From the UHGV virus genome UHGV-0302986: 31,756 nucleotides of DNA; one strand, written 5' to 3'. The notes under the pieces are model-generated. The model made no database searches and was not told the origin of the DNA. It was given only the letters and a program-made list of their open reading frames with translations. Numbering within the stretch: the first letter of the stretch is position 1; the number at the start of each line of letters is the position of its first letter. The translations under genes were made by a program, and so were the position numbers. Of the stretch, positions 20,669 through 28,240 are shown in pieces. The stretch comes from a virus.

Positions 20669-24349
<3,681 letters not shown>

Positions 24350-24375
<26 letters not shown>

Positions 24376-24895
24376 TCAGCAACCCCGGTATCAGTTCATC
24401 CAGCGCGGCTGCTTTGTTCATGGCTTTGATGATATCCCGTTTCAGGAAATCAACATGTCGGTTTTCCAGTTCCGGAAAACGCCGCTGCACCGACAGGGGG
24501 ATCCCGTCGAGAATACTGGCAATTTCACCTGCGATCCGCGACAACACGAAAGTACAGAATGCGGTTTCCACCACTTCAGCGGAGTCTCTGGCATTCTTCA
24601 GTTCCTGTGCGTCGGCCTGCGCACGCGTAAGTCGATGGCGTTCGTACTCAATAGTCCCTGGCTGGAGATCTGCCTCGCTGGCCTGCCGCAGTTCTTCAAC
24701 CTCCCGGCGCAGCTTTTCGTTCTCAATTTCAGCATCCCTTTTGGCATACCATTTTATGACGGCGGCAGAGTCATAAAGCACCTCATTACCCTTGCCACCG
24801 CCTCGCAGAACGGGCATTCCCTGTTCCTGCCAGTTCTGAATGGTACGGATACTCGCACCGAAAATGTCAGCCAGCTGCTTTTTGTTGACTTCCAT
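24350..24895 (-). CDS. Nu1: Terminase small subunit Nu1
   Basis: 181 aa; MEVNKKQLADIFGASIRTIQNWQEQGMPVLRGGGKGNEVLYDSAAVIKWYAKRD..., immediately downstream of cos. Confidence 0.95.
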
Positions 24896-25070
24896 TGTTC
24901 ATTCCACGGACAAAAACAGAGAAAGGAAACGACAGAGGCCAAAAAGCTCGCTTTCAGCACCTGTCGTTTCCTTTCTTTTCAGGGGGTATTTTAAATAAAA
25001 ACATTAAGTTACGACGAAGAAGAACGGAAACACCTTAAACCGGAAAATTTTCATAAATAGCGAAAACCCG

Positions 25071-25094
25071 CGAGGTCGCCGCCCCGTAACCTGT
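25071..25094. other. cos: cos site: cosN cohesive-end sequence plus flanking right-end bases
   Basis: AGGTCGCCGCCC (reverse complement of the lambda 12-nt cohesive end GGGCGGCGACCT) at 25071..25082, followed by CGTAACCTGTCG (reverse complement of the lambda right-end terminal bases). The flank 24896..25070 matches the remembered lambda cosB region upstream of Nu1. Confidence 0.85.
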
Positions 25095-25283
25095 CGGATC
25101 GCCGGAAAGGACCCGCAAAATGATAATAATTATCATCTGCATGTCACAACGTGCATCTACGCCATCAAACCACGTCAAATAATCAATTATGACGCAGGTA
25201 TCGTATTAATTGATCTGCATCAACTTAACGTAAAAACAACTTCAGACAATACAAATCAGCGACACTGAATACGGGACAACCTC

Positions 25284-25517
25284 ATGTCAACGAAGAACAG
25301 AACCCGCAGAACAACAACCCGCAACATCCGCTTTCCTAACCAAATGATTGAACAAATTAACATCGCTCTTGATCAAAAAGGGTCCGGGAATTTCTCAGCC
25401 TGGGTCATTGAAGCCTGCCGCCGGAGACTGTGCTCAGAAAAAAGAGTTTCTCCTGAAGCAAACAAAGAAAAGAGTGACATTACTGAATTGCTCAGAAAAC
25501 AGATCAGACCAGATTGA
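25284..25517 (+). CDS. Small basic cos-proximal protein, possibly DUF3950 (YlcI-like), possible ribbon-helix-helix
   Basis: 77 aa; MSTKNRTRRTTTRNIRFPNQMIEQINIALDQKGSGNFSAWVIEACRRRL...; an equivalent ORF sits next to cos in lambda and DLP12 (from memory); transcribed opposite to the late operon. Confidence 0.6.
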   Translation: MSTKNRTRRTTTRNIRFPNQMIEQINIALDQKGSGNFSAWVIEACRRRLCSEKRVSPEANKEKSDITELLRKQIRPD

Positions 25518-25558
25518 AGCAATTTAGATAATCGTGCAGACTACACCCCTCATATCAC

Positions 25559-25984
25559 ATGGAAGGTACTACAATGGCTCAGGTTGCCATTTTTAAACAA
25601 ATATTCGATAAAGTGCGAAATAATTTAAACTATCACTGGTTTTATTCTGAACTAAAACGTCACAATGTCTCACATTACATTTACTATTTAGCCACAGAGA
25701 ATATTCATCTTGTTCTTGAAAACGATAATACGGTTTTAATAAAAGGACAGGGTAAGGTTGTAAATGTAAGATTTTCAAAAAATAAATGCCTTATAGAAGC
25801 CACCTTAAAAGGATTCAAATCAGGAGAGTTATCATTTTACGAATACAGGAAAAATCTTGCTACAGCAGGGGTTTTCAGATGGATTACAAATATCCACGAA
25901 AACAAAAGGTATTACTATACCTTTGATAATTCATTACTCTTTACTGAGAACATTCAGAACACTACACAAATATTTCCGCACTAA
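25559..25984 (+). CDS. DUF1398-like protein (YbcV/YdfO family) of unknown function
   Basis: 141 aa; ...[58 protein letters not shown]...[38 protein letters not shown]. The true start may be the internal Met at 25574. Confidence 0.6.
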
Positions 25985-26475
25985 ATCATAACGTCCGGTT
26001 TCTTCCGTGCCAGAACCGGACTCGCTGGCATGATGAAATATGTGTACCCGGTAACCCCGGTGTGCATCGTTTTTGATTATTCCCACACACTCGCGCAGAA
26101 GGAGTTCCCCGTCGGGCTACGGTCTCTGTTAATACGGGAATACGGCGACGATACAGCGCATGATGTGTCAGGCTTGAATACCTTTATCCTTTAAAAGGGA
26201 TATCAGTTAAGTTATCCCGTGTAGGGTATAAGCCATTATCAAAGCCACTCTGTAGGAAGTGGCTTTTGTAATGGCAATAAAAAGCCCCGCGAATGCGAGG
26301 CTAAATCCTGGTATTTGTAATGACTGGCTCTTATCTCAACGCAGCCCCTTACCGCGCGCAAAATGCTCAATATCAAGCATCAGCAATGAGATGTTTAATC
26401 TGGATTCACTCCAGAAGTGAGCACCACCCTGTCTACAGAGCCAGATGTGAAGGATGATGAGTAAAATTATCGCTA

Positions 26476-26943
26476 TCATCGAAGGCATTGCGTCCTGATG
26501 TATTCCTGAAGCGTTCTCAGTGCTGTTTGGTCGCGGATAATTCCGTCCCGGATACCGAGAACGTTTCGTCCAGCAACTGGAGAGAGTTCGACGGTGGCAT
26601 CATTGCCCATGCCGGAGGCGCTGGAGGTTTCGGCTGAGGATGGCACAGGGCATTTTCCTTTGACGAGCACCCGACCACCATTATCAAGCTTGCGCCGAAG
26701 AGCATCATTTTCAGCTTTCGCATCAGCTAACTCCTTCGTGTATTTATCATCGAGTGCATCAGCATCACGCTGGCGCTGCTGCATGTCAGTAATGGTGGCG
26801 TTCGCCTTCTCCAGTTCACTGGCCTTGTTATCGCGCTGTTCTTTGTAGGCGATTGCATTATCACGGTAATGATTAACAGCCCATGACAGGCAGACGATGA
26901 TGCAGATAACCAGAGCGGAGATAATCGCGGTTACTCTGTTCAT
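26476..26943 (-). CDS. Rz: Spanin inner-membrane subunit Rz
   Basis: [38 protein letters not shown]... with N-terminal TMD and coiled coil; start taken at the internal Met of the track ORF, abutting the endolysin stop. Confidence 0.85.
26517..26723 (-). CDS. Rz1: Spanin outer-membrane lipoprotein Rz1, embedded in the +1 frame of Rz
   Basis: Track ORF with lipobox-like VVGCSS followed by a proline-rich segment [16 protein letters not shown]; the exact start is uncertain. Confidence 0.7.
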
Positions 26944-27437
26944 TGCTGACCCCACAAACAGATTTCACGCTCAATCTCACGACGAGTCATGAGACCTTTC
27001 CATTGCTTACCGCCAGCATATGTCCAGCGACGTAGCTGATCACATGCGCCTTTGATATCGCCCTGGTTTATTTTGCGAAGAAGCGTCGATGTTCTGAAAT
27101 TGCCAGCGCCCACGTTGTAAACGAACAAGTAAAGAGCGCCGCGCGTTGTTTCCGGTATATCAACTTTTATGTACGGGTTAATTTGTCTGGCGACCGTGGC
27201 AAGGTCTTTATTCAGGAGGGCTTTGCATTCTGCTTTGGTATACGTTTTACCGAGCATGATGTCTTTTCCTGTATGCCCGTGACATACAGTCCATACACCA
27301 ACAATATCTTTGTATGGTATGTAGCTGACACCTTCCAGACCATCGTTACCACTTGGGCCAGTGATTAACACTGATGCTATAGCAATTGCTCCGCCACCAA
27401 TAGCAGCAGCAACGGCTTTTCGTAATGATGGAGGCAT
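26940..27437 (-). CDS. R: SAR endolysin (phage-21 R-type lysozyme)
   Basis: 165 aa; [44 protein letters not shown]... The Gly/Ala-rich N-terminal signal-anchor-release domain and the catalytic region resemble R21. Confidence 0.85.
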
Positions 27438-27652
27438 TATTCACCTCTCGCAGCCTTGCGCTTATCTTCTTTAATCTTGAAATAAAGGTTTGTCAGGTAC
27501 GTCAGCAGGCCAAATACCAGGCTACCCAGCACACCTATTGCTGCCCACTGTGAGGGCGTGACTTTATCGAGCAGCTGTAAAAACCAGTAACCGGCACTAC
27601 CTGCTGAGGTGCCATAGGCGACACCCGTTGTTAACTTATCCATGGATTTCAT
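27437..27652 (-). CDS. S: Pinholin (phage-21 S-type class II holin)
   Basis: [71 protein letters not shown]; 71 aa with two TMDs and the dual-start motif MKSM. The track ORF extends upstream to 27697. Confidence 0.85.
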
Positions 27653-28240
27653 AACCCCACCTCGCAGACAAAGCGGGTGTAAATTGAGGGAATACAACGT
27701 ATCGCAAAAAAGCAGAAACGTAACAGACTCGGAGTCAGTGAATAACTCAGGTATTGAGTTATCAGCTAATATCGAGACTCAAAAAATGGAAAAACCAGCT
27801 CGACGGCGGGTTTAAGCTGTGTGACGAAGTAACCACTCTTAACAGCATAACCAATTTTTTACGTACGTAAACCGCTGAATGATATTTATGAGAATGCTAC
27901 CGAGTGTTCAAAACTCCACCACAAATACATAAGAAAACCTCAACAAATAACCAATAAATAATTTCAGACGTTATTTTTAGTTGATTTAAATTAAACTGCC
28001 GAATTATAGAACCCCCATAAATAACAGCCATTAATATAAATTAGCTAATAGGTTTATTTTTGTTCAAATAAGAGCCATAAATAGGTTTCGATAGAAAAAG
28101 TTCAGATAAAAATAGAGATCTACTTCACAAATTAAATGAGAAACTAAAACTTACATCTTGAAATAATCACATTGATTAGATGAATATTTATCGCGCAGTG
28201 ACATCATTTTTTAATAATAGTTCAAAAAAAAGGGCTCACG

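What the first reader, a model, noticed from the sequence alone, without database searches (positions are those of the whole stretch)
25284..26475. Cos-proximal accessory slot: two ORFs of unknown function and an ORF-free stretch where lambda carries bor
Between Rz and cos, on the strand opposite the late operon, lie a 77-aa basic protein (RNIRFPNQMIEQINIAL..., possibly ribbon-helix-helix or DUF3950) and a 141-aa DUF1398-like protein. They are followed by ~490 bp with no ORF of 60 aa or more, containing several hairpins (for example AAAGCCACT-ctgtaggaa-AGTGGCTTT at about 26241..26266). No Bor-like lipoprotein ORF is seen. This position is a classic moron slot, likely expressed in the lysogen, and neither product has an established function. 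If this window hides unexplored biology, this is the most likely place, but I cannot assign a mechanism from sequence alone.
Basis: inference. Interest (0 to 1): 0.5.

Follow-up and report, generated by a model that had tools for sequence, protein, structure and literature searches.

The report
Known lambdoid accessory genes plus terminators
The stretch between the lysis genes and cos holds two long-known prophage genes of unknown function (the same pair as ynfO-ydfO in E. coli K-12, also present in phage lambda), followed by a leftover of the bor promoter and a block of transcription-terminator hairpins, so it is an ordinary mosaic region and not a new system.

Summary
ORF1 (25284-25517, +) is a YlcI/YnfO (DUF3950) protein. 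ORF2 is a DUF1398 protein, about 77% identical to K-12 YdfO (PDB 2HH8); its real start is probably 25574 (136 aa). No Bor homologue exists anywhere in the window.

The slot is not unexplored. K-12 Qin (nohA-ynfO-ydfO), K-12 DLP12 (nohD-ylcI-ybcW-ybcV-borD) and lambda itself (unnamed ylcI-like ORF, p79, p78, bor) have the same layout.

The 490-bp "ORF-free" stretch is a mosaic of three parts:
- 25985-26160 is the lambda p78-bor spacer, with a mutated bor promoter.
- 26183-26275 is a conserved structured block, also found in HK97, Sf6, epsilon34 and Stx2 phages. Its 18-bp hairpin shows covariation.
- 26278-26488 is a Rho-independent terminator plus a 50-codon ORF (Sf6 gp65 family) that travels with Rz.

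Both proteins are under purifying selection, and each occurs without the other, so they are independent morons and not a toxin-antitoxin pair. DUF1398 has an orphan fold. YlcI looks like a ribbon-helix-helix protein, but this is unproven. K-12 papers show transcription of ybcV and ydfO, and PdhR binding next to them. Function remains unknown.

Verdict: ordinary and already catalogued. Interest is low.

The parts
25073..25084 (.). cosN cohesive-end sequence (AGGTCGCCGCCC, the reverse complement of lambda GGGCGGCGACCT). It marks the packaging end of the slot.
   Evidence: Read from the sequence. Lambda J02459 position 48502 aligns to window 25085 (H24). The window is 96% identical to lambda across 24908-25446. 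The cos sequence itself is from established knowledge of lambda.
25284..25517 (+). ylcI/ynfO-type gene. The 77-aa basic protein has a disordered basic arm (residues 1-18) and two helices (19-32, 34-53), which is ribbon-helix-helix-like, plus a variable tail. The conserved module is codons 1-48 (25284-25430).
   Evidence: Pfam DUF3950 4.9e-21; NCBIfam NF041551; PHROG 949. The N-terminal 50 aa are nearly invariant and the tail varies. pN/pS is 0.16-0.23 among close copies and 0.07 at pS 0.62 against an HK97/Stx-type copy. The AF2 monomer has pLDDT 68.
25502..25532 (+). Candidate promoter region of the DUF1398 gene: a PdhR-box-like palindrome GATCAGACC (25502-25510; GGTCAGACC in K-12 and lambda) and a -10-like GATAAT (25527-25532).
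   Evidence: The motif is conserved in front of the DUF1398 genes of lambda, DLP12-like and Qin-like loci. PdhR gSELEX sites were reported at ybcV/ybcW and inside ynfO-ydfO, and ybcV mRNA fell 10-fold in a pdhR mutant (PMC7660256). Promoter function here is inferred and was not tested.
25574..25984 (+). DUF1398 gene (136 aa; the alternative start 25559 gives 141 aa). It is the counterpart of K-12 YdfO and YbcV and of lambda p78.
25985..26160 (+). Non-coding spacer homologous to the lambda p78-bor spacer. It contains a hairpin just after the stop codon (25993-26021) and a degenerate bor promoter: CGGTCT at 26120-26125 against lambda TGGACA, and TACGGC at 26141-26146 against lambda TACAAT. The 54-codon ORF at 26030-26194 inside it is not coding.
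   Evidence: 82% identity to lambda, ending at about 26160. The promoter is annotated in HK630. ORF54 has pN/pS 1.05, and indels that are not multiples of three occur in other alleles. There is one compensatory change in the 25993-26021 stem.
26183..26275 (.). Conserved structured block: hairpin H_a (26197-26218) and the long hairpin H_b (26232-26275). H_b has an A-tract and a U-tract on either side, as in a bidirectional intrinsic terminator.
   Evidence: The block is found in HK97, mEp phages, Sf6, epsilon34, Stx2 phages and Salmonella phages. Phage Ayreon annotates a terminator here. Fold z-scores are -5.6 and -7.3. H_b has 6 covarying pairs, with 22 double-changed cells against 7.1 +/- 2.3 in shuffles (0 of 500 reach the observed value) and lower values in the slid controls.
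26278..26302 (-). Rho-independent terminator H_c (AGCCTCGCATTCGCGGGGCT followed by TTTTT) for lysis-cassette transcription that has not been modified by Q.
   Evidence: Terminator scan. The same sequence is annotated as a Rho-independent terminator in epsilon34. Fold result.
26336..26488 (-). 50-codon ORF (Sf6 gp65, epsilon34 gp67, PHROG 11822, WP_001139678) that overlaps the Rz stop by 13 nt. It has a hydrophobic N-terminus, and whether it codes for a protein is unresolved.
   Evidence: Annotated by PGAP and in several phage records. PHROG 11822 1.8e-36. It always follows Rz, whatever lies downstream. pN/pS is 0.85 overall, 0.21 for codons 1-20 and 1.48 for codons 21-50, against 0.15 for the Rz control.

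Best explanation
The region is the ordinary right-end accessory region of a lambda-family prophage, built by recombination from three known modules.

1. **Two independent accessory genes read away from cos, against the late operon.**
   - The first is a YlcI/YnfO-type protein. Its conserved 48-residue N-terminal domain most likely forms a ribbon-helix-helix dimer and binds DNA (inferred).
   - The second is a DUF1398 protein of the YdfO/YbcV/lambda-p78 family. It is soluble and cytoplasmic, has an orphan alpha/beta fold, and is dispensable for lytic growth.
   - The DUF1398 gene appears to have its own promoter, overlapped by a PdhR-type box. It is therefore probably expressed from the prophage under host control (inferred from K-12 homologues).
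2. **A relic of the lambda p78-bor spacer.** The bor promoter has lost its -10 consensus and bor itself is gone.
3. **The 3' end of a lysis cassette of the Sf6/epsilon34 type.** It consists of a 50-codon ORF coupled to Rz, a canonical intrinsic terminator, and a conserved hairpin block.

The hairpins most likely stop the two convergent transcription units in the lysogen. These units are the accessory genes on the + strand and unmodified lysis transcription on the - strand. Q-modified late transcription reads through them.

Shown here: family membership, synteny with K-12 and lambda, the mosaic joints, purifying selection, independence of the two genes, and structure and covariation of the hairpin.

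Inferred: DNA binding by YlcI, the promoter and PdhR control in this phage, terminator activity, and any effect on the host.
For: - **Family hits:**
- **Same gene order elsewhere:** lambda-type phages, K-12 Qin and K-12 DLP12.
- **Mosaic joints:** 96% identity to lambda over 24908-25446 and 82% over 25501-26160, after which homology ends. 26183-26275 recurs in HK97, Stx2 and P22-like phages, and 26279-26480 recurs next to Rz in Sf6, epsilon34 and Ayreon.
- **How common the layout is:** at least 35 of 80 viral loci share the exact architecture Nu1-YlcI-DUF1398-ORF50-Rz. The 491-bp spacer matches 3519 of 5426 complete E. coli genomes.
- **Purifying selection:** YlcI 0.07-0.23 and DUF1398 0.06-0.42.
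- **Independence of the two genes:** DUF1398 homologues at 28-53% identity are stand-alone chromosomal genes beside bluF/bluR, a GGDEF gene, a TonB receptor gene and others. DUF3950 occurs beside an HNH endonuclease gene with no DUF1398 nearby. Lambda and DLP12 have ybcW inserted between the two genes.
- **Dispensability:** lambda p78 is non-essential by CRISPRi (PMC10695390).
- **Expression of K-12 homologues:** PMC7660256 and PMC4077768.
- **Hairpins:**; terminators are annotated on the same sequences in epsilon34 and Ayreon.
Against: - No expression data exist for this phage.
- The consensus scan found no sigma-70-like promoter on the + strand upstream of either gene.
- The PdhR-like box here has a G-to-A change in one half-site.
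- In the HK97-type allele of hairpin H_b there is no clear U-tract on either strand. 'Terminator' may therefore not be its only or real role.
- The core 26053-26250 is nearly invariant among alleles whose flanks differ by 10-20%. A plain terminator would not need that much conservation.
Confidence: 0.8

Rival explanations
1. The two ORFs form a type II toxin-antitoxin pair: a ribbon-helix-helix antitoxin (YlcI) followed by a DUF1398 toxin, which would stabilise the prophage or abort infection.
For: - A small basic RHH-like gene lies directly upstream of a roughly 136-aa gene on the same strand, 41-56 nt apart.
- There is a weak PHROG hit to HicB-like antitoxins, E = 0.007.
- 78 of the 80 closest YlcI loci have DUF1398 downstream.
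Against: - DUF1398 homologues are stand-alone genes in many Enterobacteriaceae chromosomes, with no YlcI nearby.
- YlcI occurs without DUF1398.
- In lambda and DLP12 an opposite-strand gene, ybcW, separates the two.
- The YlcI C-terminal tail, where an antitoxin would bind its toxin, is not conserved.
- YdfO overexpression is reported to increase oxidative-stress resistance (PMC4077768), and the solved YdfO structure 2HH8 implies the protein could be produced in quantity; neither fits a toxin.
- PADLOC gives no significant hit for either protein; the best is Csx23 at E 0.025 for DUF1398.
Confidence: 0.04
2. The conserved non-coding unit 25985-26275 encodes a functional RNA, and is not merely a set of terminators. 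It could be a prophage small RNA, or a processing or stability element of the late transcript.
For: - The core of about 200 nt is nearly invariant across alleles found in lambda-like, Ayreon and Stx2 phages.
- The region is strongly structured on both strands, z about -6.
- Hairpin H_b covaries, and the 25993-26021 stem has a compensatory change.
- The HK97-type H_b has no U-tract.
- Prophage intergenic regions of pathogenic E. coli are known to be rich in sRNAs (PMC4104026).
Against: - No Rfam family reaches its threshold. The best is STnc560 at 19.9 bits against a gathering score of 55, and the match rests mostly on the terminator stems.
- No promoter-like site was found inside the block.
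- The RNAalifold covariation term for 25985-26170 is about zero on both strands.
- The known EHEC prophage sRNAs map near Q/PR' and stx, not to this slot.
- Near-invariance can also come from recent spread by recombination at module boundaries.
Confidence: 0.12
3. The 50-codon ORF after Rz encodes a real small membrane protein that acts with the lysis cassette, for example by tuning holin or spanin function.
For: - It always follows Rz with a 13-nt overlap, in lambda-like and P22-like contexts.
- It stays open in all 11 distinct alleles, at 90.7-100% identity.
- The hydrophobic N-terminal 20 codons have pN/pS 0.21.
- It has its own PHROG family and is annotated by PGAP.
Against: - Overall pN/pS is 0.85, and codons 21-50 give 1.48.
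- Variable sites are not concentrated at third codon positions: 12, 5 and 10 at positions 1, 2 and 3.
- The family is narrow, with 65 clusters that are almost all E. coli.
- There is no Pfam or NCBIfam match.
- Many lambdoid lysis cassettes lack it, including lambda, DLP12 and 25 of the 80 viral loci.
Confidence: 0.3
4. The DUF1398 protein is a structural or envelope protein, as the database labels say ('head protein' in PHROG 413, 'putative envelope protein' in lambda records).
For: Only the labels themselves.
Against: - The gene lies on the strand opposite the late operon.
- It has no signal peptide or hydrophobic segment, GRAVY is -0.41, and a solution NMR structure of the homologue exists.
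- Lambda p78 is non-essential for plaque formation.
- Paralogues are scattered in non-phage chromosomal contexts.
Confidence: 0.02

Closest known systems
E. coli K-12 Qin prophage nohA-ynfO-ydfO
   Same: The order and orientation are the same: small terminase subunit, cos region, a 77-aa DUF3950 gene, then a 136-aa DUF1398 gene facing the lysis genes. The YlcI tail and the junction in front of the DUF1398 gene are of the Qin type. The DUF1398 protein is about 76-77% identical.
   Different: Downstream, Qin carries gnsB-ynfN-ynfR-ynfQ-cspI before rzpQ. The window instead carries the spacer, the hairpin block and the 50-codon ORF.
Phage lambda right end (Rz, bor, p78, p79, unnamed ylcI-like ORF, cos) and K-12 DLP12 (rzpD-borD-ybcV-ybcW-ylcI-nohD)
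   Same: The window is 96% identical from cos through the first roughly 54 codons of ylcI. It is 82% identical through the DUF1398 gene and the spacer, up to the bor promoter.
   Different: Lambda and DLP12 have ybcW/p79 inserted between the two genes, an intact bor promoter and bor itself. The window has none of these.
Lysis-cassette 3' end of Sf6 (gp65), epsilon34 (gp67 plus annotated terminator), Ayreon and HK620-like phages
   Same: Window 26279-26480 is 95-98% identical to these phages and includes the 50-codon ORF overlapping Rz and the Rho-independent terminator.
   Different: In those phages the block is followed by further late-strand genes (DUF2560, terminase of the P22 or Sf6 type). 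Here it meets the convergent DUF1398 unit.
Arc/MetJ/CopG ribbon-helix-helix DNA-binding proteins
   Same: YlcI has a basic N-terminal arm and an (I/L)R(F/W)P strand motif followed by two helices joined by a Gly turn. hhalign puts the motif in register with Arc. The helix layout in the AF2 model agrees.
   Different: The similarity is not statistically significant by sequence or by fold. No operator has been identified.

Membership tests
YlcI/YnfO family (Pfam DUF3950, NCBIfam NF041551) | Match to the family HMM above the curated cut-off | tested here: met
   Pfam 74.8 bits against a cut-off of 25. NCBIfam 35.7 bits against a cut-off of 30.
YlcI/YnfO family (Pfam DUF3950, NCBIfam NF041551) | Position next to the packaging genes of a lambdoid prophage, read away from them | tested here: met
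   The gene starts 200 nt from cosN and is divergent from Nu1. The same holds in K-12 and next to the HNH gene in HK97-type prophages.
DUF1398 (YdfO/YbcV/YcgX family) | Match to the family HMM above the curated cut-off, and the YdfO fold | tested here: met
Ribbon-helix-helix (Arc/MetJ/CopG) superfamily | Significant sequence or profile similarity to a known RHH family | tested here: not met
   There is no Pfam RHH hit even at E = 10. The family profile finds nothing in the PDB. hhalign against Arc and Mnt gives probabilities of 2.3% and 0.3%. The only hint is PHROG HicB-like at E = 0.007.
Ribbon-helix-helix (Arc/MetJ/CopG) superfamily | Strand-helix-helix fold forming an intertwined dimer | tested here: inconclusive
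Type II toxin-antitoxin system | The two genes are an obligate, co-inherited pair | tested here: not met
   Each gene occurs without the other. ybcW is inserted between them in lambda and DLP12.
Type II toxin-antitoxin system | The second gene product is toxic and is neutralised by the first | not testable with these tools
   This needs expression experiments. Reported YdfO overexpression was not toxic (PMC4077768).
Bor/Iss serum-resistance lipoprotein | A Bor-like lipoprotein ORF between the DUF1398 gene and Rz | tested here: not met
   tblastn with lambda Bor gives a best E-value of 8.4 anywhere in the window. Homology to lambda stops just after the mutated bor promoter.
Intrinsic (Rho-independent) terminator | A G+C-rich stem-loop followed by a U-run | tested here: met
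   H_c at 26302-26283 (- strand) has 8 pairs, 6 of them G-C, followed by TTTTT. H_b has UUUUGUAAU on the + strand and UUUGAUAAU on the - strand. Termination activity itself was not tested.
Described bacterial small RNA families (Rfam 15) | Covariance-model score at or above the gathering threshold | tested here: not met
   The best match is STnc560 at 19.9 bits against 55.

The most novel reading that the evidence does not exclude
The roughly 290-nt non-coding unit 25985-26275 is a functional structured RNA or DNA element in its own right. It is shared by lambda-like, HK97-like, P22-like and Stx phages, has a nearly invariant 200-nt core, and carries covarying hairpins at its edges. It could be a prophage-expressed regulatory RNA, or a processing or stability signal for the late transcript. 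On this reading bor in lambda is an insertion into the element.
Probability: 0.12. Interest if true: 0.5.

Novelty: already known. Interest (0 to 1): 0.15.

Why it matters
It matters little as a discovery. The genes, their order and the terminators are already catalogued in E. coli K-12, lambda, Sf6 and epsilon34.

The useful outcome is tidying:
- The two 'unknown' genes are independent modules under purifying selection, and they are not a toxin-antitoxin pair.
- The database labels 'head protein' and 'envelope protein' for DUF1398 are unfounded.
- The DUF1398 start codon should be 25574.
- The 54-codon ORF called in some phage records is not coding.

DUF3950 and DUF1398 are carried by most E. 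coli genomes, and their function is still unknown. The 48-residue YlcI domain and the conserved hairpin block are cheap, well-defined targets for anyone who wants to close that gap.

Tried and rejected
- **Live bor-type promoter driving a small RNA into the hairpin.** Rejected: the -10 is TACGGC where lambda has TACAAT, and the -35 is also changed.
- **Match to the Salmonella sRNA STnc560.** Rejected: it is far below threshold and is carried by the terminator stems.
- **EHEC anti-sRNAs (AgvB, AsxR) or Pas sRNAs at this slot.** The papers place them near Q/PR', stx and the holin genes, not between Rz and cos.
- **The 233-aa DUF3950-DUF1398 'fusion' protein as evidence of a functional link.** It is a read-through of TGA as Trp, an artefact of gene calling. 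In this window the two ORFs are not even in the same frame.
- **Internal sequence repeat in DUF1398.** The model shows the same helix-helix-three-strand unit twice, but BLASTP of the two halves is not significant.
- **Consensus RNA structure for 25985-26170.** The covariation term is about zero on both strands.
- **tRNA or tmRNA genes.** None found.
- **Lambda ribosome-profiling paper (Liu et al. 2013).** It is not held in the library.
- **Apparent spread of DUF1398 to Actinobacteria, Firmicutes and Bacteroidetes.** These are roughly 3.5-kb pieces of lambda right-end sequence (DUF1398 76% identical to the window's, as in lambda) and are most likely control-DNA contamination.
Full report
**Setting.** The window is a lambda-family phage or prophage with the late operon on the - strand. 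Holin is at 27437-27697, endolysin at 26940-27437, Rz at 26476-26955 (with Rz1 embedded), Nu1 at 24350-24895 and the terminase large subunit at 22450-24375. The lambda cohesive-end sequence lies at 25073-25084, and lambda position 48502 aligns with window 25085.

**Check of the observation.**
- Both ORFs exist at the stated coordinates on the + strand.
- The 77-aa protein matches Pfam DUF3950 (E = 4.9e-21) and NCBIfam YlcI_YnfO_N. Its pI is 10.6.
- The 141-aa protein matches DUF1398 (E = 3.3e-43). It aligns over its whole length with K-12 YdfO, PDB 2HH8, at E = 1.4e-69.
- No ORF of 60 aa or more lies in 25985-26475.
- The quoted hairpin is real but longer than described, with 18-nt arms at 26232-26249 and 26258-26275.
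- tblastn with lambda Bor finds nothing in the window.

Two corrections apply. First, the DUF1398 gene most likely starts at ATG 25574 (136 aa). That is where PGAP and the K-12 annotation start it and where distant homologues begin, and the sequence at 25559-25567 supplies a GGAAGG Shine-Dalgarno. Second, a 50-codon ORF on the - strand (26336-26488) that several records annotate lies inside the 'ORF-free' stretch.

**The slot is not unexplored: the layout is that of K-12 and lambda.**
- K-12 Qin reads nohA, ynfO (DUF3950, 77 aa), ydfO (DUF1398, 136 aa), then genes converging from the lysis side.
- K-12 DLP12 reads nohD, ylcI, ybcW, ybcV, borD, rzpD.
- Lambda-type phages read cos, an unnamed 64-aa ylcI-like ORF, p79 (ybcW), p78 (ybcV, DUF1398), bor, Rz.
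- The window is 96% identical to lambda from 24908 to 25446 and 82% identical from 25501 to 26160. Lambda thus carries both 'unknown' genes as well as bor.
- Among the 80 viral-contig loci with the closest YlcI, at least 35 have exactly the window's architecture.
- The 491-bp spacer alone matches 3519 of 5426 complete E. coli genomes.

**Anatomy of the 'ORF-free' stretch.** It is a mosaic of three parts.

1. *25985 to about 26160 is the lambda p78-bor spacer.*
   - The promoter annotated in HK630 (TGGACA ... TACAAT) aligns to CGGTCT ... TACGGC here. The -10 has lost its consensus, and homology ends a few bases later.
   - The 54-codon ORF in this part, called as a CDS in phage Kati, has pN/pS 1.05. 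Other alleles carry indels that are not multiples of three, so it is not coding.
2. *26183-26275 is a block that recurs in many phages.*
   - It is found in HK97, mEp phages, Sf6, epsilon34, Stx2 phages and Salmonella phages, always in the intergenic space between the lysis side and the packaging side.
   - It holds hairpin H_a (26197-26218) and the long hairpin H_b.
   - The whole of 26175-26320 folds with z = -6.1 on the + strand. The overlapping 26195-26340 folds with z = -6.2 on the - strand.
   - Across 15 distinct alleles H_b keeps its pairing through double changes: AAAGCC/GGCTTT becomes GAGACC/GGTCTC in the HK97 and epsilon34 type and AAGCCC/GGGCTT in the Stx2 type.
   - Six pairs change on both sides, giving 22 double-changed cells against 7.1 +/- 2.3 in shuffles (0 of 500 reach the observed value). 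All slid controls are lower.
   - H_b has an A-tract before it and a U-tract after it, the form of a bidirectional intrinsic terminator. Phage Ayreon annotates a terminator on it.
3. *26278-26302 (- strand) is a canonical terminator.*
   - It has 8 pairs, 6 of them G-C, followed by TTTTT. Epsilon34 annotates the same sequence as Rho-independent.
   - Upstream of it on the - strand is the 50-codon ORF, which overlaps the Rz stop by 13 nt.
   - This ORF follows Rz in lambda-like and P22-like prophages, whatever comes next.
   - Its coding status is unclear. Overall pN/pS is 0.85, with 0.21 for the hydrophobic first 20 codons and 1.48 for the rest, against 0.15 for the last 50 codons of Rz in the same loci.

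Window 25985-26275 is contiguous in Ayreon and, from about 26042, in Stx2 phage 1717. Its core, 26053-26250, is nearly invariant there. Lambda has bor where the 26167-26275 part sits.

**The YlcI-type protein.**
- The first 50 residues are almost invariant across the family, while the tail after residue 50 differs from allele to allele.
- In HK97- and Stx-type prophages, DNA homology to the window starts exactly at the ATG (25284) and stops near 25430. Upstream sequence is unrelated there, and the neighbour is an HNH endonuclease gene instead of Nu1.
- Against such a copy, pN/pS is 0.07 at pS 0.62. The conserved unit is therefore the 48-residue protein domain and not cos-linked DNA.
- The AF2 monomer model (pLDDT 68, about 80 in the helices) shows an unstructured basic arm (1-18) and helices at 19-32 and 34-53.
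- hhalign places the IRFP...G motif in register with the LRWP...G motif of Arc, but with no significance.
- A weak PHROG hit to HicB-like proteins, E = 0.007, points the same way.
- I take ribbon-helix-helix DNA binding as the most likely activity, but it is an inference.

**The DUF1398 protein.**
- The family is small and confined to Enterobacteriaceae. Only 196 of 1.84 billion representatives score E <= 0.001, and many of those are fragments.
- The apparent hits in Actinobacteria, Firmicutes and Bacteroidetes are roughly 3.5-kb pieces of lambda right-end sequence (DUF1398 76% identical to the window's, as in lambda) and are most likely control-DNA contamination.
- Foldseek against viral models finds nothing significant. 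The fold is therefore an orphan and gives no functional lead.
- pN/pS is 0.06 among close copies and 0.29-0.42 against the lambda, Qin and DLP12 types.
- Homologues at 28-53% identity in E. coli (ycgX), Citrobacter, Kluyvera, Pseudocitrobacter and Salmonella diarizonae are single chromosomal genes. They sit beside bluF/bluR, a GGDEF gene, a TusA-like gene, a TonB receptor gene and others, with no YlcI, Nu1 or Rz nearby.
- Lambda p78 is non-essential by CRISPRi (PMC10695390).
- The labels 'head protein' (PHROG 413) and 'putative envelope protein' have no support. The gene is antisense to the late operon, and the protein is hydrophilic and was solved by solution NMR.

**Are the two genes a pair?** No. 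Each occurs without the other. Lambda and DLP12 have an opposite-strand gene between them. The YlcI tail is not conserved. The 233-aa 'fusion' in the protein database is a TGA read as Trp. A toxin-antitoxin reading is therefore unlikely.

**Expression.** I have no data for this phage.
- For K-12, a genomic SELEX study found PdhR sites between ybcV and ybcW and inside ynfO-ydfO. It also reported a 10-fold drop of ybcV mRNA in a pdhR mutant (PMC7660256).
- ydfO is strongly but transiently induced by an ionic liquid, and its overexpression is cited as raising oxidative-stress resistance (PMC4077768).
- The PdhR-box core GGTCAGACC and a GATAAT about 20 nt downstream are conserved in front of the DUF1398 gene in the lambda, DLP12 and Qin types. 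The window has GATCAGACC at 25502-25510 and GATAAT at 25527-25532.
- This suggests a separate promoter for the DUF1398 gene under host control. The simple sigma-70 scan, however, found no + strand promoter.

**Most likely working.**
- In the lysogen the accessory genes are transcribed toward Rz and stop at H_b.
- Stray lysis-strand transcription stops at H_c, with H_b as back-up.
- After induction, Q-modified polymerase reads through both. This last step follows from established knowledge of lambda late transcription.
- The products are non-essential, host-directed or regulatory proteins whose targets are unknown.

**What remains odd.** The near-invariance of 26053-26250 across phage types, and the missing U-tract in the HK97-type H_b, are more than a terminator needs. 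No Rfam family matches. RNAalifold finds no covariation support for 25985-26170. I give a functional RNA or DNA element there a probability of about 0.12.

**Verdict.** Novelty: already known. Interest: low.

Noticed in passing
L018-L034, L048-L049; many ENA contigs of about 3.5 kb: Pieces of about 3.5 kb carrying the lambda right-end genes ylcI-ybcW-p78-bor-Rz (Bor and YbcW 100% identical to lambda's) appear in assemblies labelled Kitasatospora, Brevibacillus, Cohnella, Flavobacterium, Pedobacter and others. This looks like spiked-in lambda control DNA and inflates the apparent host range of DUF1398 and DUF3950.
   Followed up: partly
window 25574-25984; PHROG 413; lambda p78 records: DUF1398 proteins are labelled 'head protein' by PHROGs-based annotators and 'putative envelope protein' in lambda records. 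Neither label fits the strand, the soluble NMR structure, the non-essentiality or the stand-alone chromosomal paralogues.
   Followed up: yes
P0013 (233 aa), P0014; window 25515-25517: Database 'fusion' proteins joining DUF3950 and DUF1398 arise from reading the ynfO TGA stop as Trp. In Qin-type alleles the two genes are in the same frame, separated by that single stop. In this window they are in different frames.
   Followed up: partly
window 25284-25430; L164 939-1085; L161 923-1062: The first 48 codons of ylcI behave as a discrete mobile module. Homology to HK97/Stx-type prophages begins exactly at the start codon and ends at the end of the conserved domain. The copy in Stx2 phage 1717 is frameshifted.
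   Followed up: yes
window 25120-25136 and 25182-25214: A 17-bp perfect palindrome, ATGATAATAATTATCAT, lies 36 bp from cosN. An inverted repeat, ATCAATTATGACG / CGTATTAATTGAT, lies 70-100 bp upstream of ylcI. Either could be a protein-binding site (packaging or YlcI operator). Neither was tested.
   Followed up: no
window 26053-26250; L005 and L161: A non-coding core of about 200 nt is nearly invariant between alleles whose flanks differ by 10-20%, in phages with different neighbouring genes. In lambda the distal part of this unit is replaced by bor.
   Followed up: partly
window 25431-25445 and 25489-25503: A direct repeat, TGCTCAGAAAA(A/C)AGA, flanks the segment that replaces lambda's ybcW module. 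The repeat is absent from lambda. It may mark a recombination joint.
   Followed up: partly
window 24915-24981: A palindromic stretch just upstream of Nu1, in the cosB region, gives a self-match on the opposite strand (79% over 58 nt) and weak chance-level hits to miRNA models.
   Followed up: no
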